Shown here: piece by piece, positions 588-54,328 of the stretch
Numbering within the stretch: position 1 is the first letter of the stretch
How the letters are laid out: the number at the start of each line of letters is the position of its first letter
Assembly: GCA_944390005.1 (NCBI GenBank)
Contig: CALXOJ010000003.1
Coordinates: forward strand, 175,329-239,328
Length of the DNA stretch: 64,000 nucleotides
Direction of reading: 5' to 3'
DNA from: an uncultured Spirochaetota bacterium
GTDB lineage: Bacteria; Spirochaetota; Spirochaetia; JAFGXN01
Notes under the pieces: generated by a model
What the model was told of the DNA's origin: nothing
Seen by the model: the letters and a program-made list of their open reading frames with translations, nothing else
Database searches by the model: none
Made by a program: the position numbers and the translations under genes

Positions 588-772
588 GTTTGGGCGCGCG
601 CCCCTACGGGGCGCCGCGTCGACGGCGGGCACGGTCTGCCTTACGGCAGACTGCCTGCGGCACCCGCCGTGCCGCTCGCGCCTTCGCAATCCGTTGAGAT
701 CTTCGGTGAATCAAATTTCCGAAAAGAGAGAGTGCTCGTTCGTAGATTTTCGAAAAACGAGGCAGCGGCCTT

Positions 773-4954: not shown

Positions 4955-5092
4955 AGTCGATTCAGTATATCGAATGAAGAAAAAAGAATCAATCGAAAGT
5001 TAATTCGGTTTACCTCGTAAAATTTCGGATTCAAAAAGAGTCAGAGCGGCGGCAATGGCTCCCGATTTTTGTTTTACGACGCACTCTTTCAC

Positions 5093-7051
5093 TTATTTTG
5101 TCTCCAAAGCGGCGGCGTTTTCTCCTGCCTGAGCGGAGGCGAGACGGTTTTCCGTTTCTTCCCATTCGTCGGTCAGTTTTGCAATTTCGTCTTCGGTTTG
5201 TCTGACGGCTTCAGCGGCGGCTGCCGACTTTTGAGGATCGCTGTAGCACTCTTCACGGCTCCATTCGGCGTGCAGCTGCCTCAAACGCTCTTCAGCTGTT
5301 TCGATTGCCGACAGCAGCCTCTGCGACTCCTTTTGCAAGCGGTTGATCAGGTTGCGCGTCTCTTTTTGCCGTTTGTGATCGTTGTTGGCGGTCGTTTTTT
5401 CGATAGTGTGTTCGGGGGCTGCCGTACTTCGAGTTTCTGTTTGTGCGTCGGTTTGGGATTTTTTCCATAGAAAATAATCATAATCTCCGCCGTAAAAGCG
5501 GGCTCCGTTTTCCGTCAGATCGAGAACAGAATCGGCTAAATCTCGGATGAAAGCGCGGTCATGTGAAACAAAAATCACCGTTCCCGTATAGTTTTTTAAT
5601 GCCTCCAAAAGCACATCCTTTGAATGAAGATCGAGATGGTTTGTCGGTTCGTCGAGAATGAGAAGGTTGGACGGCTGCATCATCAGCTTCAGAAGGGTCA
5701 GACGATTTTTTTCGCCGCCGCTTAAAACGGAAATCGGTTTTTCGATGTCTCTATCGGAGAAGAGAAAGGCCCCAAGGAGATTGTTGACTTTCGGACGCAG
5801 TTCGGCCGGTGCGGCAGCGTCGGCTTCTTCTTTAACCGTCATTGAAGCGTGCAGATCGTGTTCGTAATCCTGCGCAAAATAGCCGATGCGGACGCCGCTT
5901 CCGAGTTTGACAGTGCCGGAGGTCGGAGTGTCCCGTCCGGATAAAATCCGCAGAAGTGTGGATTTTCCCGCTCCGTTGACACCTGTTACGGCAGTTTTTT
6001 GCCCCGCCCGGAAGGTCAGAGACAATTCGCGCAGGACTTCATGTGTTCCGTAGCTTTTTTTGAGATCTGTCAGCGTTAACGCATCTTTGCCGCAGCGGGG
6101 CGCCGGCGGAAAACGGAAATGAATTTTTTTGAGGTTTTCCGGAATTTCGATCGGCGTCATCTTTTCCAGCATCCGTTCGCGGCTTTTGACGGAGGCAGCC
6201 TTTGTCGCTTTTGCCCGAAACCGTTCAATGTACTGTTTGCTGCGTTCGATTTCTTCCTGTTGGATTTTCGCCTGTCGGATCAGTAAATCGATTTCTTCTT
6301 TACGCTGCTTTTCATATGCCGAATAATTGCCCTTGTACCGTTTCAGCCGGCCGTTAAAAAGTTCGTAAGTTTCGCCGACAGTTTCATCTAAAAACCATCG
6401 GTCATGTGAAATGAGTAAAATGCCGCCGTCGTATTTTTCAAGAAAACGGGCAAGCCATTCGCGGCTTTCAATGTCGAGATAGTTTGTCGGTTCATCCAAG
6501 AGGAGAATTTGCGGCTGCATCAGCAGGATACGCGCCAATGCAATACGCATCTGCCAGCCGCCGGAAAAGGAGGAGGAAGATTTTTCGAGATCAGAAGTTT
6601 TGAATCCGAGCCCTTTCAGTACTCGGTCGATGCGATCGCGTCGGTGGTGGTAGCCGCAGGCAAGAAGAATCTCTTCGATTTCGTGAATGCGGTGAGCTTT
6701 TTCTTCCCAGCCGGCGTCGTGTCCGTTCATCTGTGCTGCCAAACGCGTTTTTTCATCTTCAAGCAGTCGGAAGCGGTCAAAGGCATCTTCGACCTCTTCC
6801 GGAGGCGTTTTGCTGCCGAAAGAGATACCGGTTTGCGGCAGATATGCGGCGAGCGTGCCTTCGGATTTCGAAACGGTTCCGGTATCCGGCTGAATTTCTC
6901 CGACAAGGATTTTCATAAGCGTCGATTTGCCGCAGCCGTTAACGCCGGCTAAAGCGGCGCGCGTTTTGCCGTCAATTTGAAGAGAGACGTTATTGAGCAA
7001 ATCCCGGTCACCGTAGGCAAGACAGATGTGCGAAGCTTGCAGAAGAGCCAC
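5093..7051 (-). CDS. ABC-F family ATPase (two tandem ABC domains, C-terminal coiled-coil; Uup/EttA-like)
   Basis: Two Walker A motifs (GVNGCGKST; GVNGAGKST) and two ABC signatures (LSGGWQMR; LSGGEKNR). There are no TM segments. The acidic/basic coiled-coil tail is typical of Uup-type ABC-F proteins. Confidence 0.85.
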   Translation of the reverse strand: MALLQASHICLAYGDRDLLNNVSLQIDGKTRAALAGVNGCGKSTLMKILVGEIQPDTGTVSKSEGTLAAYLPQTGISFGSKTPPEEVEDAFDRFRLLEDEKTRLAAQMNGHDAGWEEKAHRIHEIEEILLACGYHHRRDRIDRVLKGLGFKTSDLEKSSSSFSGGWQMRIALARILLMQPQILLLDEPTNYLDIESREWLARFLEKYDGGILLISHDRWFLDETVGETYELFNGRLKRYKGNYSAYEKQRKEEIDLLIRQAKIQQEEIERSKQYIERFRAKATKAASVKSRERMLEKMTPIEIPENLKKIHFRFPPAPRCGKDALTLTDLKKSYGTHEVLRELSLTFRAGQKTAVTGVNGAGKSTLLRILSGRDTPTSGTVKLGSGVRIGYFAQDYEHDLHASMTVKEEADAAAPAELRPKVNNLLGAFLFSDRDIEKPISVLSGGEKNRLTLLKLMMQPSNLLILDEPTNHLDLHSKDVLLEALKNYTGTVIFVSHDRAFIRDLADSVLDLTENGARFYGGDYDYFLWKKSQTDAQTETRSTAAPEHTIEKTTANNDHKRQKETRNLINRLQKESQRLLSAIETAEERLRQLHAEWSREECYSDPQKSAAAAEAVRQTEDEIAKLTDEWEETENRLASAQAGENAAALETK

Positions 7052-32452: not shown

Positions 32453-32611
32453 ATTCCGCTCCTTTGCCGCATCGGTCTGAGCGCCCGCTGCAGCTCCACT
32501 ATTTATTTTCAGTCCGACGGAAGCAAAAGTCAAGCGATTTTTTAAAGTCGAAATCTTGATTTTTATCGGAAATTTATATATCTTTAACAAGAAGGAAGAG
32601 TAAAAGATGTG

Positions 32612-32685
32612 CAACTCAACTCAACTCAACTCAACTCAACTCAACTCAACTCAACTCAACTCAACTCAACTCAACTCAACTCAAC
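32612..32685. repeat. pentanucleotide microsatellite (CAACT)14 + CAAC in divergent intergenic region
   Basis: A perfect run of CAACT units spans 32612-32681, plus a partial unit. The listed ORF 32607-32828 (NSTQLNSTQL...) is just its translation. Confidence 0.95.
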
Positions 32686-32840
32686 ATTTTTGTATAGTTC
32701 GATTTACGGACGAAACCGTCGGCGGCAAAATCGAAGACAGTTGCGGCGCGGTATTCGGATTACATAGCGTCGTTTCTGCTCCGTTCCGTGATTGCTGTTC
32801 GGCGATGACAATCTTGAAAAGATGTTAAGAAGGAGGCGTT

Positions 32841-33248
32841 ATGCTGCGGATTTTGCTTTTGTGTTCAATTGTGGTTCTTTCTTTCATCGGTTGTGAAGAA
32901 GTAAATGTCGGGGTGAAGGCAACGCCGGAAACCGCAACTGTTTCCATAGGGGAAGAGGTGACCGTTAAGGCGGAAATCGACAATCCGATGGGACTCAACG
33001 TTTCAGTGTATCGCTGGCGTGTCACTGTTGACGGAGAGAAAAGTGTAACGGTTGTGTTGGATGGAAAAATCGATTTGCAGGATTACGGGATTGATTATCG
33101 ATTTAATGACGATCAAACCGAATTGACAGTCGCCCACTCTCAAACCGGAATTTACCGCTATGAAGTGGAAATTGCCGTTAACGGTTTTGCCCGCAATTAC
33201 GGCATTGCTGACTCTGAAGTGACGGTTGTCGGCGAACAAATCGGTTGA
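32841..33248 (+). CDS. small hypothetical lipoprotein
   Basis: Signal MLRILLLCSIVVLSFIGC with a lipobox. 135 aa with beta-rich composition. RBS AAGGAGG before the ATG. Confidence 0.5.
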   Translation: MLRILLLCSIVVLSFIGCEEVNVGVKATPETATVSIGEEVTVKAEIDNPMGLNVSVYRWRVTVDGEKSVTVVLDGKIDLQDYGIDYRFNDDQTELTVAHSQTGIYRYEVEIAVNGFARNYGIADSEVTVVGEQIG

Positions 33249-33668
33249 TTTGGTTTTACCGACAGTGGTAATTCATACTCTCTTCCGCGCGCAGTTGATT
33301 CGGAGTTAGGCGGCTCTTCTGCGAATTCTTTAGAACGCGCCGTGCAGTAAGCCGCCGGGTTTGTTGCGTTCAGTCAATTTTTTACTGTTTAAAAGAGCTT
33401 ATTGCGGTTCTCGGGGTAGTTGCGTCCGAAATCCTTTGCCGGAAGCCGATCCTGCAAGGCGTGCGCCCCTTTTTCGGATCCGCCGCCTTCAACGCAGTCT
33501 CCTGTGCCTTTTGAACCGCCCACCGCCTCATTTGTTCTATTCTTTTGCTGCCCAAAAACGCATAAAAAAAAGAAAAAGTTTTTTCAAAAAAACCTCTTTT
33601 TTGACATTAATCATGATAGAGCGTATGTAAAAACTTCGCAGCAAAAGCCCCAAATCCGCGGAGGTGTT

Positions 33669-34451
33669 ATGAAAAACTACAGCGAACTGACCCTAACCGA
33701 CGACTACCTGTTCAGCCAAGTAATGAAAGACGAAAGCGTGTGCAAGCCGTTTCTGGAAATGCTTCTGGAAATCAAAATAGCCAAAATTGAGTATTTGCAG
33801 GAACAGAAAGAGTTGAACCTCTTCCCCGACTCCAAAGGCGTAAGGCTGGACGTCTACCTTGAAGGAGACGGAAAGGTGTACAACATCGAAATGCAGGCAG
33901 GACGCGATCAATACCTCATCTGCCGAATGCGCTACTACCGGGCGGCGATCGACATCGACATGATGATGAGAGGCAGCGGGTACCGGGAACTGAAACCCGT
34001 GTATATCATATTTCTCTGCCGATTTGACCCGATAGGGAAGGGATTGGCGAGGTACACGCTGAGGAAATACTGTGAGGAGACGGGAGAAAAAATCGATGAC
34101 GGACAGACGGAAATCGTGTATAATGTGAATGCGTATGAGAGAGCGGGGCGCGGGAAGGTACGGGAGCTTCTGAGGTATTTAGCGACCGGAGAGGCGCAGG
34201 AACCGGAGGTGAAGGAGTTTGCTAAGAAGATAGCCCGTTTTAAAGAGACGCAGCAGTGGAGAAAAGGAAACATGAAATACGAGTTAGATTTACAAGACGC
34301 CCGCATTGAAGGAAAGGAAGAGGGACGCAGTGAGACACTGCTGCTGATTATTGAGAATGGAGTGAAGCAAGGGTTAACGCCCGAGCAGACGGCGGCGCTG
34401 ACGGGGTTAACGGTTGACGAGGTGGAAGCACTGCGGAAGCGGATTCGGTAA
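33669..34451 (+). CDS. Rpn-family PD-(D/E)XK nuclease / 'putative transposase' (TIGR01784-like), copy 1
   Basis: The D...E.Q core is VRLDVYLEGDGKVYNIEMQ. The C-terminal low-complexity E/G repeat tail (EGKEEGRSE) and helix ...GLTPEQTAALTGLTVDEVEAL are typical of this family. The first 214 aa are identical to copy 2. Confidence 0.75.
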   Translation: MKNYSELTLTDDYLFSQVMKDESVCKPFLEMLLEIKIAKIEYLQEQKELNLFPDSKGVRLDVYLEGDGKVYNIEMQAGRDQYLICRMRYYRAAIDIDMMMRGSGYRELKPVYIIFLCRFDPIGKGLARYTLRKYCEETGEKIDDGQTEIVYNVNAYERAGRGKVRELLRYLATGEAQEPEVKEFAKKIARFKETQQWRKGNMKYELDLQDARIEGKEEGRSETLLLIIENGVKQGLTPEQTAALTGLTVDEVEALRKRIR

Positions 34452-34577
34452 AAACGATCGATTTTCAAATAAATCCGTTCTCGAAGCTCAAACCCGCCTT
34501 TACCCGCGCCCGGTTTTCCAAAGGCGTTTCGCTGCCCTAAACGGGAACGAAAGTTGCCTCAAAAGACACAAAACACC

Positions 34578-34860
34578 GCGTTAAAGACGACAGATTCTCA
34601 AACGCAACCCACCGCAGTCGAAGCTTAAAATATTGCGTTAAAATCCACTGATTCGCCAAAGAAACTCACAGCTATCGAAGTTTACCCACTACGTTAAAAT
34701 CCACCGATTCGCCAAAGAAACCCGCCGCAGCCGAAGCTCAAAATATTGCGTTAAAGGCCTCTGATTCGCCAAAGACATCAAACATTGCGAAGTCAAAAAA
34801 TTCCCTTTAAAGGCGGCAGATTCTCAAATAAAACCACAGCGGTATTAAATAAAGACGCAA
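34578..34860. repeat. tandem array of ~5 degenerate 56-57-bp repeats downstream of Rpn copy 1
   Basis: Units start at 34578, 34635, 34691, 34748 and 34804. The consensus is roughly GCGTTAAAATCCACCGATTCGCCAAAGAAACCCACCGCAGCCGAAGCTCAAAATATT. The same family lies at 39601-39815. Confidence 0.7.
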
Positions 34861-35741
34861 ACACGATTGTCTTGGAGTCGAGCGCTGTGACGGAGGGCTC
34901 AAACACGTATACGGCAACTTTATCCGCGTTCGGATACACGAATTTACAGTTGAGTTGGGCGAATGTAGAGATCGACAAAACCGCCCCCTTACAAATTCTT
35001 GGTGTTTCGTTTGATAGGACAGCGGATGGAACCTCTGTCACCGCTAACTGGACCTTGCCGAATGGACATGACATTGCCAAAGTCGTTTTCACTGAATTGG
35101 TCGGCAATGGAAATACTTCTTCAGACAGCGTAAATGCGTCGCACGTTACAGACAAAGAAGGCGGTATCGTTGCAGAATTTTCTATAACAGGGGCAAATGA
35201 AACCAGCGGTGTTATTGATGATTTAACAGCTGACGCCCCCTATTGGTTCATGGTTCACACTGAAGACGCGGCGGGCAACAAAAGCGTGCGCGCAAGGGAT
35301 AGCGTCGCCGGAACTGTTGCGCCGGACGACAACGGCTTCATGGTGCGGTTCACTTCATCTCAACTGGATGAAGAAGCGCCTTACATAACGAATGCAACCG
35401 GTTATTTTGACGGGACGCATTACATTTTTTCATGGGATAATCCGAACGGATACGACGTTAAGATTGCCAAAAAAGGTGCAAATTTGGCACTTGGAGAGAG
35501 CGACGGCAGCTCAGAAGGCATCGTTGAATGGATCACGGATGAAACCGACAGCAACAAGAAAATCGGCGCAAAAGTCAAACTGGGTGAGGTGACAAATTCC
35601 TACAATTTCCGTTTGATGGTTTACGCGACGGATTCAGATACGGCTTCAACCAATACACCTGATACAACCAATGACTTTCAAGCGTTCTGTCTTTTCTATT
35701 TCCCGGAAAATCAGGCCAATGAGGTTACGCCTGCAAATTAA
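34785..35741 (+). pseudogene. 5'-truncated fragment of a fibronectin-type-III-like surface protein gene
   Basis: The ORF starts at a TTG inside the repeat array, and its first ~25 codons are translated repeat sequence. There is no signal peptide. The downstream part shows two FN3-like modules (e.g. DKTAPLQILGVSFDRTADGTSVTANWTLPNGHD) and ends at a strong terminator. Confidence 0.35.
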
Positions 35742-35746
35742 CCATT

Positions 35747-35773
35747 GGCGTCCCTGCGGGGACGCTTTTTTTT
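35747..35773 (+). terminator. Rho-independent terminator
   Basis: Stem-loop GGCGTCCC-TGCG-GGGACGC followed by T8. Confidence 0.7.
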
Positions 35774-35810
35774 CTTTTGTCCCTCTTTTCAAAAAAAAAT
35801 AAAAAAAAAG

Positions 35811-35839
35811 TTGACAAATAGAGGGGGGGGGGGACAATA
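35811..35839 (+). promoter_or_regulatory. putative promoter of the sulfatase gene with the G11 tract in the spacer
   Basis: TTGACA at 35811-35816. A 17-nt spacer (35817-35833) ends in the G11 run. A weak -10-like ACAATA lies at 35834-35839. A9-T-A9 AT-tracts sit upstream (35781-35799). Confidence 0.4.
35823..35833. repeat. homopolymeric G11 tract
   Basis: Eleven consecutive G at 35823-35833, the only long poly-G in the window. Confidence 0.95.
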
Positions 35840-35876
35840 ATAGTAAATAGAAAAAAATTTTAAAAGAGGTATAATT

Positions 35877-38231
35877 ATGAAGAAGCGTAAATCAGCACTT
35901 TCTTTATTATCGGTAACAGCGGCGTTATTGGCGGGCGGCTGCCCCGAAACGCCGCCGATTGAGTCGCAGACGCCTGGAGGGGATACGGAAAATCCCGGAG
36001 GCGGCGGTACAGTGACGCCGTCCGGCCGCATGAATATCATTTTGTTCATGGTTGACGACATGGGGCTTAACGACTCGTCGGTTCAGTTTTTGGAGGGCGG
36101 TTCGAAATTGAACGAATATTACCACACTCCGAATATGGAGCGGTTGGCAGAAAAGGGGGTCCGCTTTACAAGCGCTTACGCCGCGCCCGTATCCTCGCCG
36201 ACGCGCATTAGTTTGATGACAGGTTCCAACGCAGCGCGCCACCGCGTGACCAACTGGACACTGAATCTCAATGACAACACTGATGCCTCGTTTCAAAATA
36301 ATTTGGCAGGACAGCCGTGGAACTGGAACGGTATTTCTCCCGATGTTAACGGTGACGTAACCTCAAACAACATTTATGAAACCACAACATTCCCACAGAT
36401 TTTACAAAAAAACGGGTACCGCACCATCCACCTCGGAAAGGCGCACTGGGGGGCTATCAGCACAAAGGCGGCTGAACCGCTGAACCTCGGTTTTGACGTC
36501 AATATCGGCGGGGCGGCGCCGGGAGGTCCGGATAACTATGCCCTTACTAATGCTTCACAGGAGTACACCGGTTTTCAAATCCCATTTCCGCGTCTCAATG
36601 AATACGCGACAGCCGAAACAAATTACCACATTACCGACGCGATTACCAACGCCGCGCGGTCGGAGATTGACCGCGCCGTCGAGGACGGAACGCCGTTTTA
36701 TATGTACATGTCGCACTACGCCGTCCATTCGCCGTATACTCAGCCAGATGAGCGCTTTTACAAATTCTACGAGGGTAAATCAACAGCTGACCAGACGATT
36801 TACGGAACGAGGAACAAGAACTACGGAACGCTGGTCACCGGTATGGATAAATCCCTCGGCGAGCTGATGGATTACTTGGAAGAAAAAGGGATTGCCGATA
36901 AAACCATCTTGATTTTTATGGCTGACAACGGCGGACACCATGATAACAAAAATACGCCGCTTAGAGGCTCAAAAGGATCGATGTGGGAAGGCGGTATTCA
37001 TGAGCCGATGATGGTTTACTGGCCGGGCGTGACCGATGCTTATGCCGGTCAAAAGAATGATTCGCCTGTCATAATTGAAGATTTTTATCCGACAATTTTG
37101 GAAATGGCAGGCGTCGCTCCCGGAAGTTACGACAGCGAACTGAAGCAGACTGTCGACGGCAAGAGCTTTGTATCTGCGTTAAAAGGCAATAAGCCCATCA
37201 ATACCGATCGCGCACTCTATTTTCATTATCCGAACAAGTGGGGGGAGGCAACTACTCTGAATAGTGATCCCGTCGGTTTTCCGTCAAGCGCCATCATCAA
37301 AGACGGATGGAAGTACATTTATTTCTACGGCACCGGTAAAGAATATCTCTTCAATCTGACAGCAGACGAAATTGAAGAGACAAATTTGGCAGAGACTAAT
37401 GCCGAGAAAAAAGCAGAATTGGCGAAAGATTTGTCCGATTACCTGAAATCGGTCGACGCAACCATGGTTTATGACAGCACTTCGGGAGTGATTACTTATC
37501 CGGACGGCACAACGGATAATGCATTTACATACAAAGTGGGAGACGACAATGTCTTTTACATCGATATCAACGATCAAAACGGATCGGTAGAGAATGAGCC
37601 GTTAGCCGGCCGCGGTGCACACACTGGTGCGGTAACAGAAGAAGACAACTTCACGATTTCTTTTGAAGATGGAACAGAAGTGACCGGTTCGATAGCGTGG
37701 ACCGGCACTGTAAAACCCAACGGTGACAACGGAAGGTTTGCTTCTGTGGAAGAAGCCAATGCGTTCGGCAGCCTGTTCTCCGGTTTCACAAAAGAAGAAA
37801 CTTTAAGCAATGCTCTGCTTCCTGTTTGGGCGGATGCGGTAACGCTGGAGACGGATAGTCCTTCGGCTGTCATTCTATTGGAAGGCCTGCCTGAAGGAAC
37901 ATACGAAATCGGTTTGCTGAGTGTGCGCAATAACAGCTACTACGGAACGAACAACGGCAGTCTGATTAAAAACGCTGTTTACGACATAACCACCGGAACC
38001 GTAAGCGAGGCACAAGCTTTCGGAACCAAGAAAAACGTTGCCGACAGCAATTTGACAGATAAAGCGGTGCTGTCTGAAACCGATAAGTTTACCGTGAATC
38101 AAGACGCCGGTACGGACTCCGAAGTGTGGGGTTTCCGTTTCAGCTGGACAGTGACTCCCGAAAATGAAAGGATTGAAATCACTGTTTCCGGAACCTGCTC
38201 CTTGAATGCGTTGAGAGTCGAAAAACGTTGA
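35877..38231 (+). CDS. Ser-type sulfatase lipoprotein with ~230-aa C-terminal module of unknown function
   Basis: Lipoprotein signal MKKRKSALSLLSVTAALLAGGC. The sulfatase signature S-S-P-T-R-ISLM-TG has Ser at the formylglycine position. The metal-binding DDMG is near the N-terminus. A C-terminal extension from ~aa 553 is homologous to the C-terminus of the 62082-63764 protein. Confidence 0.85.
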   Translation: MKKRKSALSLLSVTAALLAGGCPETPPIESQTPGGDTENPGGGGTVTPSGRMNIILFMVDDMGLNDSSVQFLEGGSKLNEYYHTPNMERLAEKGVRFTSAYAAPVSSPTRISLMTGSNAARHRVTNWTLNLNDNTDASFQNNLAGQPWNWNGISPDVNGDVTSNNIYETTTFPQILQKNGYRTIHLGKAHWGAISTKAAEPLNLGFDVNIGGAAPGGPDNYALTNASQEYTGFQIPFPRLNEYATAETNYHITDAITNAARSEIDRAVEDGTPFYMYMSHYAVHSPYTQPDERFYKFYEGKSTADQTIYGTRNKNYGTLVTGMDKSLGELMDYLEEKGIADKTILIFMADNGGHHDNKNTPLRGSKGSMWEGGIHEPMMVYWPGVTDAYAGQKNDSPVIIEDFYPTILEMAGVAPGSYDSELKQTVDGKSFVSALKGNKPINTDRALYFHYPNKWGEATTLNSDPVGFPSSAIIKDGWKYIYFYGTGKEYLFNLTADEIEETNLAETNAEKKAELAKDLSDYLKSVDATMVYDSTSGVITYPDGTTDNAFTYKVGDDNVFYIDINDQNGSVENEPLAGRGAHTGAVTEEDNFTISFEDGTEVTGSIAWTGTVKPNGDNGRFASVEEANAFGSLFSGFTKEETLSNALLPVWADAVTLETDSPSAVILLEGLPEGTYEIGLLSVRNNSYYGTNNGSLIKNAVYDITTGTVSEAQAFGTKKNVADSNLTDKAVLSETDKFTVNQDAGTDSEVWGFRFSWTVTPENERIEITVSGTCSLNALRVEKR

Positions 38232-38252
38232 CAGCAGCCGATTGGCTCTTTT

Positions 38253-38277
38253 GGCGCCCCTTTTGGGGCGCTTTTTT
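38253..38277 (+). terminator. Rho-independent terminator of sulfatase gene
   Basis: GGCGCCCC-TTTT-GGGGCGC followed by T6. Confidence 0.65.
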
Positions 38278-38643
38278 GTATTTCGGGCGCGTGCGCGCCG
38301 CAAGCGGCGCGCACCGGGCTTTCCGCTGCAATTCGCAGCCTCCCGCGCCTTTACCGAGGCAAAGCTGCCGCTTTGCCCTGCGCCATCTCTCCGTCGGCAG
38401 CTCATTTCCGCTCCAATCCCTCGCGCCTTCGAAAGCGTGCGCCCCTTTTTCGAATCCGCCGCCTCCAACGCAGTATCCTGTGCCTTTTGAGTCTCATACA
38501 GCCTCATTTGTTCTATTCTTTTGCTGCCCAAAAACGCATAAAAAAAAGAAAAAGTTTTTCAAAAAAACCTCTTTTTTGGCATTAATCATGATAGAGCGTG
38601 TGTAAAAACTTCGCAGCAAAAGCCCCAAATCCGCGGAGGTGTT

Positions 38644-39474
38644 ATGAAAAACTACAGCGAACTGACCCTAACCGACGACTACCTGTTCAGCCAAGTAATG
38701 AAAGACGAAAGCGTGTGCAAGCCGTTTCTGGAAATGCTTCTGGAAATCAAAATAGCCAAAATTGAGTATTTGCAGGAACAGAAAGAGTTGAACCTCTTCC
38801 CCGACTCCAAAGGCGTAAGGCTGGACGTCTACCTTGAAGGAGACGGAAAGGTGTACAACATCGAAATGCAGGCAGGACGCGATCAATACCTCATCTGCCG
38901 AATGCGCTACTACCGGGCGGCGATCGACATCGACATGATGATGAGAGGCAGCGGGTACCGGGAACTGAAACCCGTGTATATCATATTTCTCTGCCGATTT
39001 GACCCGATAGGGAAGGGATTGGCGAGGTACACGCTGAGGAAATACTGTGAGGAGACGGGAGAAAAAATCGATGACGGACAGACGGAAATCGTGTATAATG
39101 TGAATGCGTATGAGAGAGCGGGGCGCGGGAAGGTACGGGAGCTTCTGAGGTATTTAGCGACCGGAGAGGCGCAGGAACCGGAGGTGAAGGAGTTTGCTAA
39201 GAAGATAGCCCGCTTTAAAGAGACGCAGCAGTGGAGGAAAGGAAACATGAAATACGAATTAGACTTACAAGACGCCCGTGCGGAAGGCATTGAAATCGGA
39301 CGAAGCGAAGGGCTGGAAGAAGGATTGGAGAAAGGCCATTCCGAGGGACGTTATGAAATGGCTGTCCTTATCACAGAAAATATGATGAAGCAAGGATTAA
39401 CGCCCGAACAGACGGCGGCGCTGACGGGGTTAACGGTTGACGAGGTGGAAGCACTGCGGAGGCGGATGCGGTAA
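38644..39474 (+). CDS. Rpn-family PD-(D/E)XK nuclease / 'putative transposase' (TIGR01784-like), copy 2
   Basis: Identical to copy 1 over the first 214 aa. It has a longer C-terminal E/G-repeat tract (AEGIEIGRSEGLEEGLEKGHSEGRYEMAVLITENMM), 16 aa more than copy 1. Confidence 0.75.
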   Translation: MKNYSELTLTDDYLFSQVMKDESVCKPFLEMLLEIKIAKIEYLQEQKELNLFPDSKGVRLDVYLEGDGKVYNIEMQAGRDQYLICRMRYYRAAIDIDMMMRGSGYRELKPVYIIFLCRFDPIGKGLARYTLRKYCEETGEKIDDGQTEIVYNVNAYERAGRGKVRELLRYLATGEAQEPEVKEFAKKIARFKETQQWRKGNMKYELDLQDARAEGIEIGRSEGLEEGLEKGHSEGRYEMAVLITENMMKQGLTPEQTAALTGLTVDEVEALRRRMR

Positions 39475-39600
39475 AAACGATCGATTTTCAAATAAATCCG
39501 CTCTCGAAGCTCAAACCCGCCTTTACCCGCACCTGATTTTCCGAAGGCGTTTCGTTACCCTAAACGGGAACGAAAGTTGCCTTAAAAGACCCAAAACACC

Positions 39601-39815
39601 GCGTTAAAAGCGACAGATTCTCAAATAAAGCCACAGTTGTCGAAGCTCAAAATATTGCGTTAAAATCCACCGATTCGCCAAAGAAAACCACAGCTGTCGA
39701 AGTTTAACCACTGCGTTAAAAGCGCCCGATTCTCCAAAGAGCCCCACAGCAGTCGAAGCTCAAAATACTGCGTTAAAATCCACCGATTCGCCAAAGAAAC
39801 CCACCGCAGCCGAAG
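39601..39815. repeat. tandem array of ~4 56-57-bp repeats downstream of Rpn copy 2
   Basis: Units start at 39601, 39657, 39713 and 39770. Same family as 34578-34860. Confidence 0.7.
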
Positions 39816-39952
39816 GCGCGAGCGGCACGGCGGGAGCCGCAAGGCTGCCTGCCGTCAGGCAGGCCGAGCCCGCCGTCGACGCGGTGCGCGCTCGGCGCGC
39901 ACGCGCCCAAAAGAAGAGTCTTGGGATCGAAAGGAGGCGAGCCGATTTTTTG

Positions 39953-39981
39953 TTGACAATGCGGCGGTAATAGGCTAAAAT
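39953..39981 (+). promoter_or_regulatory. near-consensus sigma70 promoter of tetR-family gene (TTGACA-17-TAAAAT), predicting a leaderless transcript
   Basis: TTGACA at 39953-39958, a 17-nt spacer, TAAAAT at 39976-39981. The ATG at 39988 lies 7 nt downstream with no room for an RBS. Confidence 0.5.
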
Positions 39982-39987
39982 CGTAGC

Positions 39988-40605
39988 ATGTACGAGGAGA
40001 AAGCCGGCGATTCCCGCAGAAACCTCATTTATAAAGAAGCCGTTCGGATGATTGCCGAGCGCGGATTTGCGGCGACTTCGGTTCGTGATATTTGTAAAGC
40101 GGTCGGAATTAAAGAGAGTTCGTTCTATATCTATTTTTCAAAGAAAGAAGAGATTCTCAGCGAGGTGTTTTCTGAATTCGAGGCGTTGTTTTTGAAAGCT
40201 CCGGTTTCTGACGAACAAATTGCGTCATTAACCGATGAGTTTTCCCCTCGGCGGATTCTGGTTGAAGCGCTTTCGCTTTGTTTCGGCCGGCTGCGTGATG
40301 AGTCGGTGCGGCGGCTTTGGCGTGTGGTGATTGTCGAGCAGTTTTGTGATGAGCGGGCGGCGTGTGCATTGCGCAGTGTCAATCGGCGTTTGGCGGAGAC
40401 GGCAGGCGGTTTGTTTGCACAGTGGCGCAGGCGCGGGTTTCTCGATAATCCTGAAGCGGTGGTTCCGGCTGCAGAGTTTTTTGCTGCTTCTGTGAGAATG
40501 CTTTTTTACGATTGTCTTTCGCGCGGAGGGGGAACGCCGCCGCCGGAGGAGATTGAGAGATTGGCGGCTTTTTTTCTTTCTGTTCTGAAGGTTCGTTTTG
40601 TGTAA
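39988..40605 (+). CDS. TetR/AcrR family transcriptional regulator
   Basis: N-terminal HTH IYKEAVRMIAERGFAATSVRDICKAVGIKESSFYIYF matches the TetR_N signature. 205 aa. Confidence 0.8.
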   Translation: MYEEKAGDSRRNLIYKEAVRMIAERGFAATSVRDICKAVGIKESSFYIYFSKKEEILSEVFSEFEALFLKAPVSDEQIASLTDEFSPRRILVEALSLCFGRLRDESVRRLWRVVIVEQFCDERAACALRSVNRRLAETAGGLFAQWRRRGFLDNPEAVVPAAEFFAASVRMLFYDCLSRGGGTPPPEEIERLAAFFLSVLKVRFV

Positions 40606-40617
40606 ACGGAGGTTTTT

Positions 40618-41331
40618 ATGGGGAAAAATTTGACTGTATTTTTTACAGGGTTGTTTTTGGCTCTCGGTATTGCCGCGGCTGGCGGAGCTGTCTGTTACGG
40701 TTTGATTGCAGGAAAACAGGCTAACCGGACGGTAAGTGTTCGCGGTTTAGCCGAGCGTGAGGTTGATGCCGATCTGGCGGTGTGGCCGTTGAAGTTTACC
40801 GTCGCTGCCGATGATTTGACTTCTTTAAACGAGGCGGTCAAACGCGATTCGGCTATAGTCGAAGCGTATCTGGCGAAAAATAACGTCGGCAAGGCTGATA
40901 TTGTCAAGCAGTCGATCAATGTCGACGATGAAGCGCAGAGAATGTATGCCAATTCTACGCCGCGTCCGTACCGTTACATCGGGGAGGTGACTTTCTTGAT
41001 TCGTTCTGTTAACATTGAAGCGGTTAAAGCGGCCGACCGCAATTTGAGGGATTTGATTGCGCAGGGGGTGCTTTTGTCGAATAATTACGGCGCTTCACAG
41101 GCACAGTTTCTCTTCAACGGATTGAACGACATTAAACCCGATATGATTGCCGAAGCCACTGTCAATGCGCGGGCAGCCGCCGATCAATTTGCTAAAGATT
41201 CAGGCAGCCGTGTCGGACGCATTAAAACGGCGACGCAGGGACTTTTTTCGATCACCGATGTTAACGAAGCGATGCCGGAGAAGAAAATCGTTCGTGTGGT
41301 TAACACCGTTGAATACTTTTTGACGGATTGA
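40618..41331 (+). CDS. SIMPL (DUF541) domain periplasmic protein
   Basis: An N-terminal TM/signal precedes RTVSVRGLAERE, the first beta-strand of the SIMPL fold. The C-terminal pattern A...AAADQFAKDSGSRVGRI fits this family. Confidence 0.5.
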   Translation: MGKNLTVFFTGLFLALGIAAAGGAVCYGLIAGKQANRTVSVRGLAEREVDADLAVWPLKFTVAADDLTSLNEAVKRDSAIVEAYLAKNNVGKADIVKQSINVDDEAQRMYANSTPRPYRYIGEVTFLIRSVNIEAVKAADRNLRDLIAQGVLLSNNYGASQAQFLFNGLNDIKPDMIAEATVNARAAADQFAKDSGSRVGRIKTATQGLFSITDVNEAMPEKKIVRVVNTVEYFLTD

Positions 41332-41342
41332 GGCCCGGAAAG

Positions 41343-42854
41343 ATGAAAAATCAGTTGCTTTTCGGGTTTTCGATTATCACGACGGGAGTGTTTGCTCAGG
41401 CGAATGATCGTCCGAACGTGGTTTTTGTCGTTGGGGATGATGTCGGTTACGGCGATTTGAGTTGTTACGGTGCAGAGAAGATTCAAACTCCGAATTTGGA
41501 TCGGTTAGCGTCGGACGGCTGCCGTTTTACGGCGGCTCACAGCTCGGCGGCAACTTCGACTCCGGCGCGGTATGCGCTGCTTACGGGGACTTACGGATTT
41601 CGTTCGGGAATGGATGTTTTGCCGGGAGATGCGGCGATATCGATTCCCGAGGATAAAATGACGCTTCCGATGGTGTTTCAAAAGGCCGGTTACGAAACGG
41701 CAGTTGTCGGAAAGTGGCACTTGGGTTTGGGACGAGGAAAAATCGATTGGAATCAGCCGATTTCTCCGTCGCCAAATGACGTCGGTTTCGACTACAGTTT
41801 TATTATTCCTGCCACCAACGATCGGGTACCGTGCGTTTATGTACAAAACGGTTCGGTTGTCAATGCGGATCCCGATGATCCGATTACTGTCGATTACAAG
41901 AATCCGATTTTGGGAAGCGAATATCCCGACGGCCGCCGTCAACCGGAGACGATGGCGGAATATCCAAGCAGTCACGGTCACAATATGTCGGTTATTAACG
42001 GAATCGGACGAATCGGTTACATGAAGGGTGGAAAAAAGGCTTTGTGGAACGATGAAACCATTGCCGACACTTTGCTTGGAGAGGCAGTCGATTTTATCGA
42101 AAAACACCGAACGGAACCTTTTTTTCTAATGTTTAACTCCAACGATATTCACGTGCCGCGAGTTCCGCATCCGCGCTTCCGAGGCGTATCGCAGCACGGT
42201 TTGCGCGGCGATGCTATGGTTCAGTTGGACTGGTGTGTCGGTGAGTTGATGAAAACATTGGATCGTTTCGGATTGACGGAAAACACGATTTTCATCTTTA
42301 CTAGTGACAACGGTCCCGTTTACGACGACGGTTACCGGGACGGATCGACCGTTCATCTTTTCAGTAAAGAGAATGACAATGGACATGATGCCAGCGGTCC
42401 GTGGTTTGGTGGAAAATACGATATGCGCGAAGGCGGTACCTGCGTGCCGCTGATTATCCGCTGGCCGAATCGGGTAAAACCTGCTTCCGAATCCGATGCA
42501 TTGGCAGCGCAAATCGATTTCCTTGCAACCTTTGCCGATTGGTTTTCTGTTCCGCTTTCCGATGATGAGGCTTTGGACAGTGTCGCGCGTTTTGATCTCT
42601 TTTTCAACAATGCGCCGGCGAAAGAGCCGCAAGTTTTGATTGAAGAGAGCTATGATCGCCTTTCACTTCGCTGGGGCCAATGGAAGTACATGGAAAAAGG
42701 AAAGAAGCTGTTTGATTTAAACGAATCGCTTGAAGAAAAGAAAAATCTTCGTTTTCAAAACCGAGACGAGTATGAATTTGCCTCCGAGACTTTAAAGACA
42801 TTAAAAAAGATCGGTGTGCGCGAATGGATGAAATCTGTAGAGACTCTTGAATAA
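41343..42854 (+). CDS. Ser-type sulfatase (arylsulfatase family), secreted
   Basis: Signal MKNQLLFGFSIITTGVFAQA. GDDVGYGD metal site. Signature S-T-P-A-R-YALL-TG has Ser at the formylglycine position. Start placed at ATG 41343; the listed 41328 is a TTG. Confidence 0.85.
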   Translation: MKNQLLFGFSIITTGVFAQANDRPNVVFVVGDDVGYGDLSCYGAEKIQTPNLDRLASDGCRFTAAHSSAATSTPARYALLTGTYGFRSGMDVLPGDAAISIPEDKMTLPMVFQKAGYETAVVGKWHLGLGRGKIDWNQPISPSPNDVGFDYSFIIPATNDRVPCVYVQNGSVVNADPDDPITVDYKNPILGSEYPDGRRQPETMAEYPSSHGHNMSVINGIGRIGYMKGGKKALWNDETIADTLLGEAVDFIEKHRTEPFFLMFNSNDIHVPRVPHPRFRGVSQHGLRGDAMVQLDWCVGELMKTLDRFGLTENTIFIFTSDNGPVYDDGYRDGSTVHLFSKENDNGHDASGPWFGGKYDMREGGTCVPLIIRWPNRVKPASESDALAAQIDFLATFADWFSVPLSDDEALDSVARFDLFFNNAPAKEPQVLIEESYDRLSLRWGQWKYMEKGKKLFDLNESLEEKKNLRFQNRDEYEFASETLKTLKKIGVREWMKSVETLE

Positions 42855-53955: not shown

Positions 53956-54142
53956 AAATCATCGCCATTATATCCGAAACCGCGCTTTTAATCAAGCGGT
54001 TCAATGAAATTTTTATTTTTGGGCGTCCCGGCTTCGCCGTCGGCGCCCTCCGAGCTCGGTCTGCCCGCGCCTGCCGGCGGGCAGACGGCCTGCGGCCCTC
54101 TGCGGGCGCCTGACGCGCTTACGGCTGCGCTGCGCCCTCTTC

Positions 54143-54171
54143 TTGACAGAGATTCTTTCCTCACGTATAAT
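54143..54171 (+). promoter_or_regulatory. consensus sigma70 promoter (TTGACA-17-TATAAT) of FGE-like gene copy 1; identical copy at 55830-55858
   Basis: Perfect -35 and -10 hexamers with a 17-nt spacer. A ~150-nt leader follows, containing a UUCCCC-AA-GGGGAA hairpin and a U-run before the RBS GGAGG. Confidence 0.55.
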
Positions 54172-54328
54172 AAAATTATGAACGACGACAGAAGCAAGCA
54201 AGCAGTATCTTTATGTAACAAATCAGAAAAGTCCTCATTCGGTAACAAAGGGCGGTGTTTTCCCCAAGGGGAAATGCCGTCTTTTTTTATATTCCCACAA
54301 ATTTATTAAAAAGATGGAGGAAAGAACG

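What the first reader, a model, noticed from the sequence alone, without database searches (positions are those of the whole stretch)
33455..39908. Two direct copies of the Rpn element bracket a poly-G-controlled sulfatase gene and a gene fragment (composite, recombination-prone arrangement)
Copy 1 (33455-34860) and copy 2 (38435-39815) are about 1.4 kb of near-identical DNA in the same orientation. They flank a 3.5-kb segment that holds a 5'-truncated FN3-like gene and the sulfatase lipoprotein gene. Copy 1 lacks both terminal repeats, so it is a decayed or truncated copy. Direct repeats of this size can loop out or amplify the intervening sulfatase by homologous recombination. Together with the poly-G promoter this marks the locus as a variable surface-enzyme cassette. 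The two Rpn ORFs are identical for 214 aa, then differ by a 16-aa indel inside the E/G-rich repeat tract, consistent with slippage or recombination within that tract.
Basis: partly seen in the sequence, partly recalled or inferred. Interest (0 to 1): 0.6.

Follow-up and report, generated by a model that had tools for sequence, protein, structure and literature searches.

The report
Paired Rpn genes flanking a sulfatase
Two copies of a known toxin-antitoxin nuclease gene (Rpn) sit in the same orientation on either side of a sulfatase gene with a slippery poly-G promoter in what is probably a gut spirochaete; the repeat is real and the neighbourhood differs between strains, but every working part matches things already described.

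Summary
Two direct Rpn copies (33456-34839 and 38432-39815) bracket a 5'-truncated lipoprotein gene and a lipoprotein sulfatase gene with G11 in its promoter spacer.

The copies are not uniformly near-identical. A 612-nt block is identical, and its flanks are 83-92% identical.

They are not transposons. They are Rpn genes (TIGR01784) of the RpnL toxin / intragenic RpnS antitoxin type. The 16-aa indel equals four of the 4-aa repeats that are known to vary in this family.

Metagenome assemblies of the same species show at least five Rpn loci. The nuclease part is homogenised (gene-conversion signature) and the RpnS part is shuffled.

Each window copy is followed by a 56/57-nt minisatellite with 2-13 units depending on strain. 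Some modules sit between inverted GC-rich elements. Copy 1 lost its left element and its neighbour's 5' half through two microhomology deletions.

The locus is structurally variable. Some strains lack the whole block, and poly-G runs from 9 to 13. The predicted loop-out or amplification product was not seen. Sulfatase relatives as divergent as 82% identity (only a few read for context) sit almost all on 2.4-6.3 kb contigs, as expected if repeat-flanked.

Verdict: real, partly reinterpreted, moderately interesting.

The parts
32841..33248 (+). 135-aa gene of unknown function. It is the left anchor of the variable region.
   Evidence: There are no family hits. Its right-hand neighbour differs between strains: Rpn copy 1 (window, L067, L068), htpG (L059) or a DUF362/Fe-S gene (L060-L066).
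33456..33668 (+). Leader and promoter region of Rpn copy 1. Homology to copy 2 starts here.
   Evidence: The left junction at 33459-33461 ('GCG') is a microhomology deletion junction relative to L060-L064. Those loci carry a solo GC element, DUF362 and a left GC element before the leader. The reading TTGACA-17-TATGTA at 33604-33632 comes from the sequence and was not called by the scan.
33669..34451 (+). rpn copy 1, encoding RpnL-1 (260 aa), a PD-(D/E)XK nuclease
   Evidence: TIGR01784 scores 108.4 bits (cut-off 52.1) and PF12784 scores 46.1 bits (cut-off 27.4). R59, D61, E74 and Q76 are invariant in a 56-sequence alignment. The AF2 N-terminal domain has pLDDT of about 90.
34272..34451 (+). 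Predicted intragenic antitoxin ORF RpnS-1 (59 aa, starting at M202)
   Evidence: M202 is at least 90% conserved. GGAGAAAAGGA lies just upstream of the ATG. A promoter-like site ATGACG-17-TATAAT lies at 34096-34124. Free-standing duplicates of exactly this unit exist in L054. The model comes from PMC10400941.
34452..34839 (+). 3' tail of copy 1: a pre-array segment followed by a 56/57-nt minisatellite (34578-34839, about 5 units of two alternating subtypes)
   Evidence: TRF finds periods of 57 and 113. There are 61 distinct units across loci, with invariant GATTC...TCGAAG...TTAAA motifs and no consensus fold.
34832..35741 (+). 3' remnant (about 300 codons) of a lipoprotein gene, a pseudogene fragment
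   Evidence: Full-length versions of 603-649 aa, with a lipoprotein signal and Flg_new, are in L074, L076 and L077. L053 carries a frameshifted version called as 557 aa. Homology to them starts at window positions 34828-34832. The junction shows 5-nt microhomology (ACAGC) between an array unit and the gene interior. A terminator lies at 35747-35766.
35811..35838 (+). Sulfatase promoter-like site with G11 (35823-35833) in the spacer
   Evidence: The scan gives TTGACA-16-GACAAT. The tract length is 9, 11, 12 or 13 in contigs where it lies well inside the contig. L019 is otherwise 100% identical over 8.6 kb but has G13.
35877..38231 (+). Lipoprotein sulfatase gene (784 aa)
   Evidence: PF00884 scores 159 bits and PF16347 also hits. 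The signal peptide ending LLAGGC and the Ser-type SSPTR motif were read from the translation. A terminator lies at 38253-38272.
38281..38432 (-). Left GC-rich repeat element (long type) flanking copy 2
   Evidence: It shares its inner end (CGAAGGCGCGAG) and its outer hairpin end (GGCGCGCACGCGCCC) with 39810-39923, 57800-57955 and 589-687. The same element precedes Rpn at three other loci.
38432..38643 (+). Leader of Rpn copy 2
   Evidence: The -35 and -10 hexamers differ from copy 1 (TTGGCA and TGTGTA), as read from the sequence.
38644..39474 (+). rpn copy 2, encoding RpnL-2 (276 aa), with predicted RpnS-2 at 39247-39474 (75 aa)
   Evidence: TIGR01784 scores 122.3 bits. It has four more 4-aa repeats than copy 1 and a different helix 2. 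A promoter-like site lies at 39071-39099.
39475..39815 (+). 3' tail of copy 2: a pre-array segment followed by a 56/57-nt minisatellite (39592-39815, 4 units)
   Evidence: At this site the unit number varies between strains, with 3, 4, 5, 7, 9 and 13 units seen.
39810..39923 (+). Right GC-rich repeat element (short type), in inverted orientation relative to 38281-38432
   Evidence: It is strongly structured (z = -5.0). The same element ends the Rpn module at the rseP-ispG locus.
39988..40605 (+). TetR-family regulator gene, the right anchor of the variable region
   Evidence: PF00440 hits. The promoter-like site TTGACA-17-TAAAAT lies at 39953-39981. In L020 and L021 homology to the window begins at 39901 or 39947 and the upstream genes are unrelated.

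Best explanation
The two repeats are paralogous copies of an Rpn gene module, not a transposon.

What each copy encodes. Each copy encodes a PD-(D/E)XK nuclease, RpnL. By inference it also encodes, from an internal start at Met202, a small C-terminal protein, RpnS, that neutralises its own RpnL. This is the genes-within-genes toxin-antitoxin and antiphage arrangement shown for E. coli Rpn proteins.

The family. The species, probably a gut Treponema-like spirochaete, carries this family at five or more loci across strains. The nuclease-coding part and part of the leader are kept almost identical between copies by gene conversion. The RpnS part is diversified by gain and loss of 12-nt (4-aa) repeats and by allele shuffling. 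The two window copies differ by four repeats and in helix 2, so they should form non-cross-reacting pairs.

The flanks. Both window copies carry a 56/57-nt minisatellite after the stop codon. Its function is unknown. It behaves as an unstructured variable-number tandem repeat. Modules at some loci lie between inverted copies of a dispersed GC-rich hairpin element.

The bracketed segment. It is an older chromosomal pair of surface-protein genes: a lipoprotein gene and a lipoprotein sulfatase gene. Each has its own simple-repeat switch. The lipoprotein gene has (GA)n in its signal-peptide codons, and the sulfatase gene has poly-G in its promoter spacer.

History in the window's lineage. Two microhomology deletions abutting copy 1 removed its left GC element together with a DUF362 gene, and removed the 5' half of the lipoprotein gene.

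Consequence. The direct repeats do recombine, but what can be seen is non-reciprocal exchange plus rearrangements and deletions at their edges. Loop-out or amplification of the sulfatase gene is not seen.

Shown here: anatomy, family membership, repeat variation, mosaic identity, and strain-level structural variants. Inferred: RpnS expression, toxicity, defence role, effect of poly-G length on transcription, and gene conversion as the mechanism.
For: Family membership:
- TIGR01784 and PF12784 score above their cut-offs.
- D61, E74 and Q76 are invariant and M202 is nearly invariant in 56 homologs.
- The AF2 nuclease domain is confident, and the weak top Foldseek hits are PD-(D/E)XK nucleases such as McrC and cap-snatching endonucleases.

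RpnS:
- A Shine-Dalgarno-like sequence precedes the ATG at 34272 and 39247.
- An internal promoter-like site is present in both copies.
- L054 carries a free-standing duplicate that starts 30 nt upstream of that ATG. PMC10400941 describes the same kind of duplicate as rpnSs.

Four-aa repeats:
- The 90%-identity cluster has members of 260, 272, 276, 280, 284 and 288 aa.
- The repeats begin 11 residues after M202, within the 8-20 range given in PMC10400941.
- That paper shows that one extra repeat abolishes neutralisation.
- Sample BRZ_IQ holds a strain 100% identical to the window over 8.6 kb. It carries further copies of 280 aa and probably 288 aa at other loci at equal coverage. The paralogs therefore all differ in repeat number.

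Concerted evolution:
- There is a 612-nt identical block.
- Only 24 variable sites occur in 605 nt across 17 copies from several loci.
- L001 copies 1 and 2 share strain-specific variants.
- The L014 leader is a copy-1/copy-2 mosaic.

Decay of copy 1: deletion junctions are seen against L060-L064 and against L053.

Phase-variable tracts:
- Poly-G is 9-13, with a precedent in T. pallidum promoters (PMC7864442).
- (GA)5 is in frame and (GA)6 is frameshifted.

Not a transposon:
- Module ends differ between loci. The Big_2 locus copy ends at the stop codon.
- No target-site duplication was seen.
- Distant homologs have no flanking inverted repeats.
- The literature reaches the same conclusion.
Against: - Nothing about expression, toxicity or defence was tested or can be tested here.
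- PADLOC gives no hit. Its 2023 library may simply lack Rpn models.
- RpnS alone does not hit PF14261/DUF4351 or the PDB by sequence.
- There is no obvious defence-island context around the copies.
- All comparative evidence comes from short-read metagenome assemblies. These break or can mis-join exactly at these repeats, so shared SNPs between copies and some synteny differences could be assembly effects.
- The source organism was not identified directly. The genome-contig scan found only homologs of 43% identity or less.
- The minisatellite has no explanation in this model.
Confidence: 0.75

Rival explanations
1. Active recombination cassette. Homologous recombination between the two direct copies frequently loops out or tandemly amplifies the 3.6-kb sulfatase segment, so that sulfatase copy number varies within populations.
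For: The copies share 612 nt of perfect identity and about 800 nt at 99% or more, in direct orientation. That is ample for RecA-dependent exchange. The copies demonstrably exchange sequence. Some strains lack the sulfatase altogether (L020, L021, L059).
Against: No contig has the predicted 135aa-Rpn-TetR junction among the contigs read for either anchor gene. All contigs that span a copy show the two-copy arrangement. Strains without the block have different genes on both sides (htpG, DUF362, hemN-like), not a single hybrid Rpn. The one coverage pair gives 10.3x against 9.1x. Sulfatase relatives down to 82% identity lie almost all on 2.4-6.3 kb contigs, as expected if repeats flank them; the few read for context keep an Rpn module or its remnant on each side. 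This implies long persistence. Short-read assemblies could hide minority variants.
Confidence: 0.12
2. Composite transposon. Rpn is the transposase of an IS-like element with terminal inverted repeats, and two copies mobilise the sulfatase gene as cargo.
For: Rpn is widely annotated as a 'putative transposase'. Copy 2, and the copy at the rseP-ispG locus, are bounded by inverted GC-rich elements that share both ends. The family is multi-copy.
Against: PMC10400941 finds no inverted terminal repeats, no target-site duplications and no transposition for rpn genes, and no autonomous transposase is known with this fold. In the window, copy 1 has no flanks and the Big_2 locus copy has only the left one. 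No target-site duplication is visible at either complete module. The GC elements also occur alone and at Rpn-less sites (L020, L059, and L074 at the copy-1 position). The 'cargo' begins with a gene truncated by deletion, not with an element end.
Confidence: 0.05
3. Assembly artefact. The second copy, or the identical block, was created by mis-assembly of a repeat.
For: The window's provenance is unknown and may be a metagenome-assembled genome. Many assemblies break at these repeats (27 of 35 index blocks hold the sulfatase only on 2-5 kb contigs).
Against: The copies have different flanks, different leaders, different RpnS alleles and different arrays. The full arrangement was recovered independently in several samples from two projects (L001, L019, L002, L022, L003).
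Confidence: 0.03

Closest known systems
E. coli RpnA-E and plasmid RpnP2: the RpnL toxin with intragenic RpnS antitoxin and antiphage system (Zhong et al. 2023, PMC10400941)
   Same: Same protein family by HMM. A conserved internal Met with a ribosome-binding site lies ahead of a small helical, HTH-like C-terminal domain. The 4-aa repeats (one hydrophobic residue plus charged residues or Gly) begin 11 residues after that Met and vary in number within the species. Duplicated rpn genes and free-standing downstream RpnS copies occur. Module ends vary between loci.
   Different: Identity to characterised members is low, and nothing here has been tested functionally. Most copies carry a 56/57-nt minisatellite after the stop codon, and many lie next to or between GC-rich hairpin repeats. 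Neither feature is mentioned in that paper. There are four or more paralogs per genome, with near-identical nuclease parts.
Poly-G promoter phase variation in Treponema pallidum (tprE/F/I/J, tp0126, tprL; PMC7864442)
   Same: A homopolymeric G tract lies inside a sigma-70-type promoter upstream of a surface-protein gene in a spirochaete. Tract length differs between otherwise identical strains.
   Different: The gene is a sulfatase lipoprotein in an uncultured gut spirochaete. The effect of tract length on transcription has not been measured, and the transcription start is not mapped.
Composite transposons and IS-flanked cassettes
   Same: Two same-orientation copies of a multi-copy 1.4-kb sequence bracket accessory genes.
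   Different: There is no known transposase, no defined element ends at copy 1 and no target-site duplications. The bracketed genes look like old residents, because the arrangement is conserved across relatives only 82-96% identical.
REP/REPIN elements with RAYT genes
   Same: A dispersed family of GC-rich hairpin elements also flanks, in inverted orientation, a multi-copy nuclease-family gene.
   Different: The flanked gene is a PD-(D/E)XK Rpn, not a Y1 (IS200/IS605-like) RAYT. The association may simply reflect duplication of a segment that included the flanks, and it is absent in distant Rpn homologs.

Membership tests
Rpn family (TIGR01784 / PF12784 PDDEXK_2) | Match to the family HMM above the curated cut-off over the full length | tested here: met
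   TIGR01784 scores 108.4 and 122.3 bits against a cut-off of 52.1, covering model positions 1-272 of 273. PF12784 scores 46.1 and 45.7 bits against a cut-off of 27.4.
Rpn family (TIGR01784 / PF12784 PDDEXK_2) | Conserved PD-(D/E)XK-type catalytic residues | tested here: met
   R59, D61, E74 and Q76 are invariant in a 56-sequence alignment. Both window copies are identical through residue 212. The mapping onto the catalytic residues of RpnA was not checked residue by residue.
RpnL/RpnS genes-within-genes toxin-antitoxin | Internal translation start giving a small C-terminal protein | tested here: inconclusive
   The sequence evidence is positive. M202 is at least 90% conserved. A Shine-Dalgarno-like GGAGAAAAGGA lies upstream. 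An internal promoter-like site is present. A free-standing duplicate of exactly this unit exists in L054. Expression cannot be tested here.
RpnL/RpnS genes-within-genes toxin-antitoxin | Four-amino-acid repeats that start 8-20 residues after the RpnS Met and vary in number within a species | tested here: met
   The repeats start at residue 12 of RpnS. Cluster members are 260, 272, 276, 280, 284 and 288 aa long. The criterion comes from PMC10400941.
RpnL/RpnS genes-within-genes toxin-antitoxin | RpnL toxicity, neutralisation by the cognate RpnS, and phage defence | not testable with these tools
   Experiments are needed. PADLOC gives no hit. RpnS alone gives no PF14261 hit.
Insertion sequence / composite transposon | Defined terminal inverted repeats on each copy | tested here: not met
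   Copy 2 has inverted GC-rich flanks. Copy 1 has none. The Big_2 locus copy has only the left flank. The flanks also occur alone.
Insertion sequence / composite transposon | Target-site duplications and precise empty sites | tested here: not met
   No direct repeat is visible at the ends of 38281-39923 or at the ends of the rseP-ispG module. Strains without the block differ in synteny rather than showing an empty site.
Promoter phase variation by homopolymer length | Tract located between -35 and -10, and length polymorphic among near-identical strains | tested here: met
   The promoter-like site reads TTGACA-G11-containing spacer-GACAAT. Tract lengths of 9, 11, 12 and 13 are seen, and L019 is identical apart from the tract.
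Promoter phase variation by homopolymer length | Tract length changes transcription | not testable with these tools
   This needs a reporter assay or RNA data. The precedent is PMC7864442.
Formylglycine-dependent sulfatase (S1) | Sulfatase domain and a (C/S)xPxR active-site motif | tested here: met
   PF00884 scores 159 bits. The SSPTR motif and the lipoprotein signal ending LLAGGC were read from the translation.
CRISPR array (considered for the 56/57-nt repeats) | Conserved repeats separated by unique spacers | tested here: not met
   All 61 distinct units align over their whole length and there are no unique spacers. There is no Rfam hit.
REP/RAYT system (considered for the GC-rich flanks) | Flanked gene encodes a Y1 HUH transposase (RAYT) | tested here: not met
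   The flanked gene is an Rpn PD-(D/E)XK protein.

The most novel reading that the evidence does not exclude
In this spirochaete lineage the Rpn gene may be part of a defined cassette: GC-rich hairpin element, leader, rpn with rpnS, a 56/57-nt minisatellite, and an inverted GC-rich element. Its non-coding parts may be functional partners of the nuclease. For example, the dispersed GC elements or the GATTC...TCGAAG...TTAAA units could be Rpn/RpnS binding or cleavage sites that target recombination. That would make Rpn a driver of the rearrangements, deletions and gene conversion seen at its own borders, analogous to RAYT with REPINs. This would contradict the published view that rpn genes lack defined ends or associated repeats.
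Probability: 0.1. Interest if true: 0.6.

Novelty: new member of a known kind. Interest (0 to 1): 0.35.

Why it matters
The locus is a natural example of several Rpn paralogs coexisting in one genome. Their nuclease domains are homogenised and their antitoxin specificity regions are kept distinct. The repeat numbers all differ (260, 276 and 280 aa, and probably 288 aa). This is what the published 'repeat number sets toxin-antitoxin pairing' result predicts for coexisting paralogs, and it could be tested directly.

It also shows a gut-spirochaete surface-enzyme locus with stacked simple-repeat switches: poly-G, (GA)n and (CAACT)n. These sit next to recombining repeats, which is relevant to how uncultured Treponema vary sulfatase and lipoprotein expression in the host.

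For genome annotation, it warns against reading 'Rpn/putative transposase' pairs as composite transposons.

Tried and rejected
1. The genome-contig scan with Rpn-2 did not find the source species.
2. TRF and inverted-repeat scans on 23 distant Rpn loci found the coding 12-nt repeats everywhere. In the TRF output that could be read (it was cut off at L043) and in the nine loci scanned for inverted repeats, no 56-nt arrays or flanking inverted repeats appeared. Those features therefore look lineage-specific.
3. The array-unit pattern was scanned against JGI metagenome contigs and IMG/VR and gave 0 matches.
4. Rfam on 32500-40100 gave nothing relevant. Alifold on 61 units and single-strand folds of unit dimers show no structure, with z of about 0. 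A structured-RNA reading of the array was dropped.
5. A CRISPR-like reading of the array was rejected because there are no spacers.
6. PADLOC, Pfam on RpnS alone and a PDB sequence search (which gave only an HTH-like designed repeat) gave no direct support for RpnS or a defence role. Foldseek of the full-length model gave only weak PD-(D/E)XK hits.
8. The search for the predicted 135aa-Rpn-TetR deletion junction through look-ups of both anchor proteins found none.
9. L058 was first read as an alternative left context of copy 1. This was dropped. It is more likely a separate locus (pyrimidine-nucleoside phosphorylase side), because its 288-aa protein also occurs on the long BRZ_IQ contig.

Full report
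OBSERVATION

The repeat finder and a pairwise alignment confirm two same-orientation copies, at 33456 to about 34839 and at 38432-39815, spaced 4975-5023 nt apart. Identity between them is mosaic:
- 91.9% over the first 124 nt;
- 99.4% over 33581-34271, including a perfect 612-nt block (33626-34237 = 38601-39212);
- 83% over the next 36 nt;
- a 48-nt indel;
- 89.6% over the following 413 nt.

The proteins (260 and 276 aa) are identical for 212 residues. The same arrangement was recovered in independent metagenome assemblies at 99.5-100% identity (L001, L019), and other contigs cover one copy with its flanks (L003/L013, L002, L022, L011). It is therefore real.

WHAT THE PARTS ARE

Both ORFs are Rpn-family proteins. 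TIGR01784 scores 108 and 122 bits against a cut-off of 52, and PF12784 is also above its cut-off. In an alignment of 56 homologs, R59, D61, E74 and Q76 are invariant and Met202 is at least 90% conserved. An AlphaFold model has a confident N-terminal nuclease domain. Its C-terminus is helical, with a long first helix that holds the repeat tract. Foldseek gives only weak matches, and the best are PD-(D/E)XK nucleases.

The ORF at 34785-35741 is a genuine 5'-truncated gene. Related assemblies carry full-length lipoprotein genes of 603-649 aa, with a signal peptide and the Flg_new domain, directly upstream of the sulfatase gene (L074, L076, L077). L053 has a frameshifted version called as 557 aa. 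Homology to the window starts at 34828-34832. The junction has 5 nt of microhomology (ACAGC) between a minisatellite unit and the gene interior.

The sulfatase (784 aa) hits PF00884 at 159 bits. Its translation shows a lipoprotein signal and a Ser-type SSPTR motif. Its promoter-like site, TTGACA-16-GACAAT, contains G11 in the spacer.

RPN BIOLOGY EXPLAINS THE 'E/G TRACT'

Zhong et al. (PMC10400941) showed the following for rpn genes:
- They encode a toxic nuclease, RpnL, and from an internal start a small antitoxin, RpnS.
- A tract of four-amino-acid repeats beginning 8-20 residues after the RpnS Met varies in number within species.
- A single extra repeat abolishes neutralisation.
- rpn genes have no terminal inverted repeats or target-site duplications and are not transposases.
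- Duplicated rpn genes and free-standing downstream RpnS copies occur.

All the sequence-level features are present here:
- A Shine-Dalgarno-like sequence and ATG lie at 34272 and 39247.
- An internal promoter-like site is present in both copies.
- The repeats start 11 residues after Met202.
- The 90%-identity cluster has members of 260, 272, 276, 280, 284 and 288 aa.
- L054 carries a free-standing RpnS duplicate.

The 16-aa indel is therefore four repeats. Together with a different helix 2, it predicts that the two window copies are non-cross-neutralising pairs. This is an inference.

A MULTI-COPY FAMILY UNDER CONCERTED EVOLUTION

The same family (at least 90% protein identity) occurs at further loci:
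- between rseP-like and ispG-like genes (L054-L057);
- next to a pyrimidine-nucleoside phosphorylase gene (L058);
- after a Big_2 surface-protein gene (L079, L080).

Sample BRZ_IQ holds a strain 100% identical to the window over 8.6 kb. It carries the Big_2-locus copy (280 aa) on a contig of equal coverage (19.2x against 19.3x) and probably also the 288-aa copy. One genome would then hold paralogs of 260, 276, 280 and 288 aa.

Across 17 copies the 605-nt nuclease part has only 24 variable sites. L001 copies 1 and 2 share strain-specific variants that the window copies lack. The L014 leader switches from copy-1 type to copy-2 type. RpnS alleles are distributed across loci without respect to position. 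This is the signature of gene conversion.

One caveat applies. Short-read assemblers can homogenise repeats.

NON-CODING COMPANIONS

A 56/57-nt minisatellite with two alternating subtypes follows the stop codon of both window copies. Unit number varies from 2 to 13 between strains at the same site. The 61 distinct units share invariant GATTC, TCGAAG and TTAAA motifs but have no consensus fold and no fold stability (z of about 0). They have no Rfam match and no match in JGI or IMG/VR contigs. Their function is unexplained.

Copy 2 is bounded by inverted relatives of a GC-rich hairpin element, at 38281-38432 (-) and 39810-39923 (+). These share both ends. The full module 38281-39923 recurs at the rseP-ispG locus. 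However:
- The Big_2-locus copy ends at its stop codon.
- The elements occur alone at 589-687 and 57800-57955.
- They also occur at Rpn-less sites (L020, L059, L074 at the copy-1 position, L079 at 4965-5151).
- Distant Rpn homologs have no such flanks.

Copy 1 lacks both elements. Compared with L060-L064, the window has lost a solo GC element, a DUF362 gene and the left GC element, at a 'GCG' junction.

HOW VARIABLE IS THE LOCUS?

It is very variable, but not in the predicted way.
- L020 and L021 lack the whole block and also the second sulfatase gene (41334-42841). They have unrelated genes upstream of the TetR gene.
- The 135-aa gene is followed by Rpn-1, htpG or DUF362 in different strains.
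- L074 keeps a left GC element, a leader remnant and a degenerate array at the copy-1 position but has no rpn ORF there. It has a divergent Rpn paralog (from the clade about 50% identical) at the copy-2 position.
- Poly-G is 9, 11, 12 or 13 where the tract is well inside a contig. L019 differs from the window essentially only there.
- (GA)5 against (GA)6 in the lipoprotein signal-peptide codons correlates with intact against frameshifted gene calls.

By contrast, no contig shows a single hybrid Rpn joining the 135-aa gene to the TetR gene, and none shows a tandem duplication. One coverage pair gives about 1:1. Sulfatase relatives at 82-96% identity lie almost exclusively on 2.4-6.3 kb contigs, as expected if repeats flank them in most lineages; only a few were read for context. 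The arrangement therefore looks old and persistent.

COMPARISON AND VERDICT

- The Rpn genes are new members of the RpnL/RpnS kind.
- The poly-G promoter matches the Treponema pallidum precedent (PMC7864442).
- The direct-repeat geometry is generically recombinogenic.
- The composite-transposon reading fails on defined ends, target-site duplications and transposase identity.
- The organism is inferred to be a Treponema-like gut spirochaete, from the nearest named homologs (Spirochaetia and Treponemataceae MAGs).
- The most novel reading that remains open is that the minisatellite and GC elements are functional partners of Rpn. I put this at about 10%.

Noticed in passing
window 32612-32685: A (CAACT)14 pentanucleotide repeat lies between the divergently oriented EF-G-like gene and the 135-aa gene. 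Copy number ranges from about 8 to 19 across assemblies, and the called length of the EF-G-like protein changes with it (696, 723 or 750 aa). It may be another phase-variable switch.
   Followed up: partly
window 41328-42854: A second sulfatase gene (508 aa, Ser-type STPAR motif) is a clean presence/absence polymorphism. L020 and L021 have 46 unrelated nt in place of 41334-42841. Both sulfatase genes are absent together in those strains.
   Followed up: partly
window 54005-57657: Tandem paralogous lipoprotein genes (450 and 520 aa; GldK/FGE-sulfatase-like domain plus Listeria-Bacteroides repeats) sit within 1.7-1.9 kb direct repeats that are 86-100% identical. A 69-nt GC-rich sequence is present three times.
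   Followed up: no
window 589-687 (-) and 57800-57955 (+): Solo copies of the two subtypes of the GC-rich hairpin element that flank Rpn copy 2. The second lies next to tRNA-Arg and tRNA-Pro genes.
   Followed up: partly
L053 1669-1700; L074 5981-6012; L076 1144; L077 32: A (GA)n tract lies in the signal-peptide codons of the intact lipoprotein gene. With n = 5 the gene is in frame (628 or 649 aa). With n = 6 it is frameshifted and the gene is called from an internal Met. A C10 tract lies about 270 nt upstream in L053.
   Followed up: partly
L054 8929-9204; L039 3707-4221; L030 3588-4170: There are tandem duplications of just the RpnS-coding module downstream of rpn genes. L054 has a 79-aa free-standing RpnS. 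In a Bacillota MAG, a 243-nt unit is repeated 2.1 times. These match the 'rpnSs' copies described in PMC10400941.
   Followed up: partly
L074 5341-5780 and 10418-10950: At the copy-1 position this strain has a GC element, a leader remnant and a degenerate array but no rpn ORF. At the copy-2 position it has a divergent Rpn paralog (MIPWKDLKLTDDYLF...) behind the same GC element and a leader containing repeated CTCACTGAGAAAT motifs.
   Followed up: partly
L060 9622-11151 (also L061-L064): A DUF362/4Fe-4S gene is bracketed by inverted GC-rich elements of about 155 nt, and the whole unit is flanked by a 3-nt direct repeat (GCG). The unit is exactly absent from the window. It is either a palindrome-mediated deletion or an insertion of an IR-bounded cassette.
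   Followed up: no
L069-L073: A 46%-identical Rpn paralog (274 aa) sits at a conserved site upstream of MazG and RelA/SpoT-like genes in the same sample sets. It has no minisatellite and no GC elements.
   Followed up: partly
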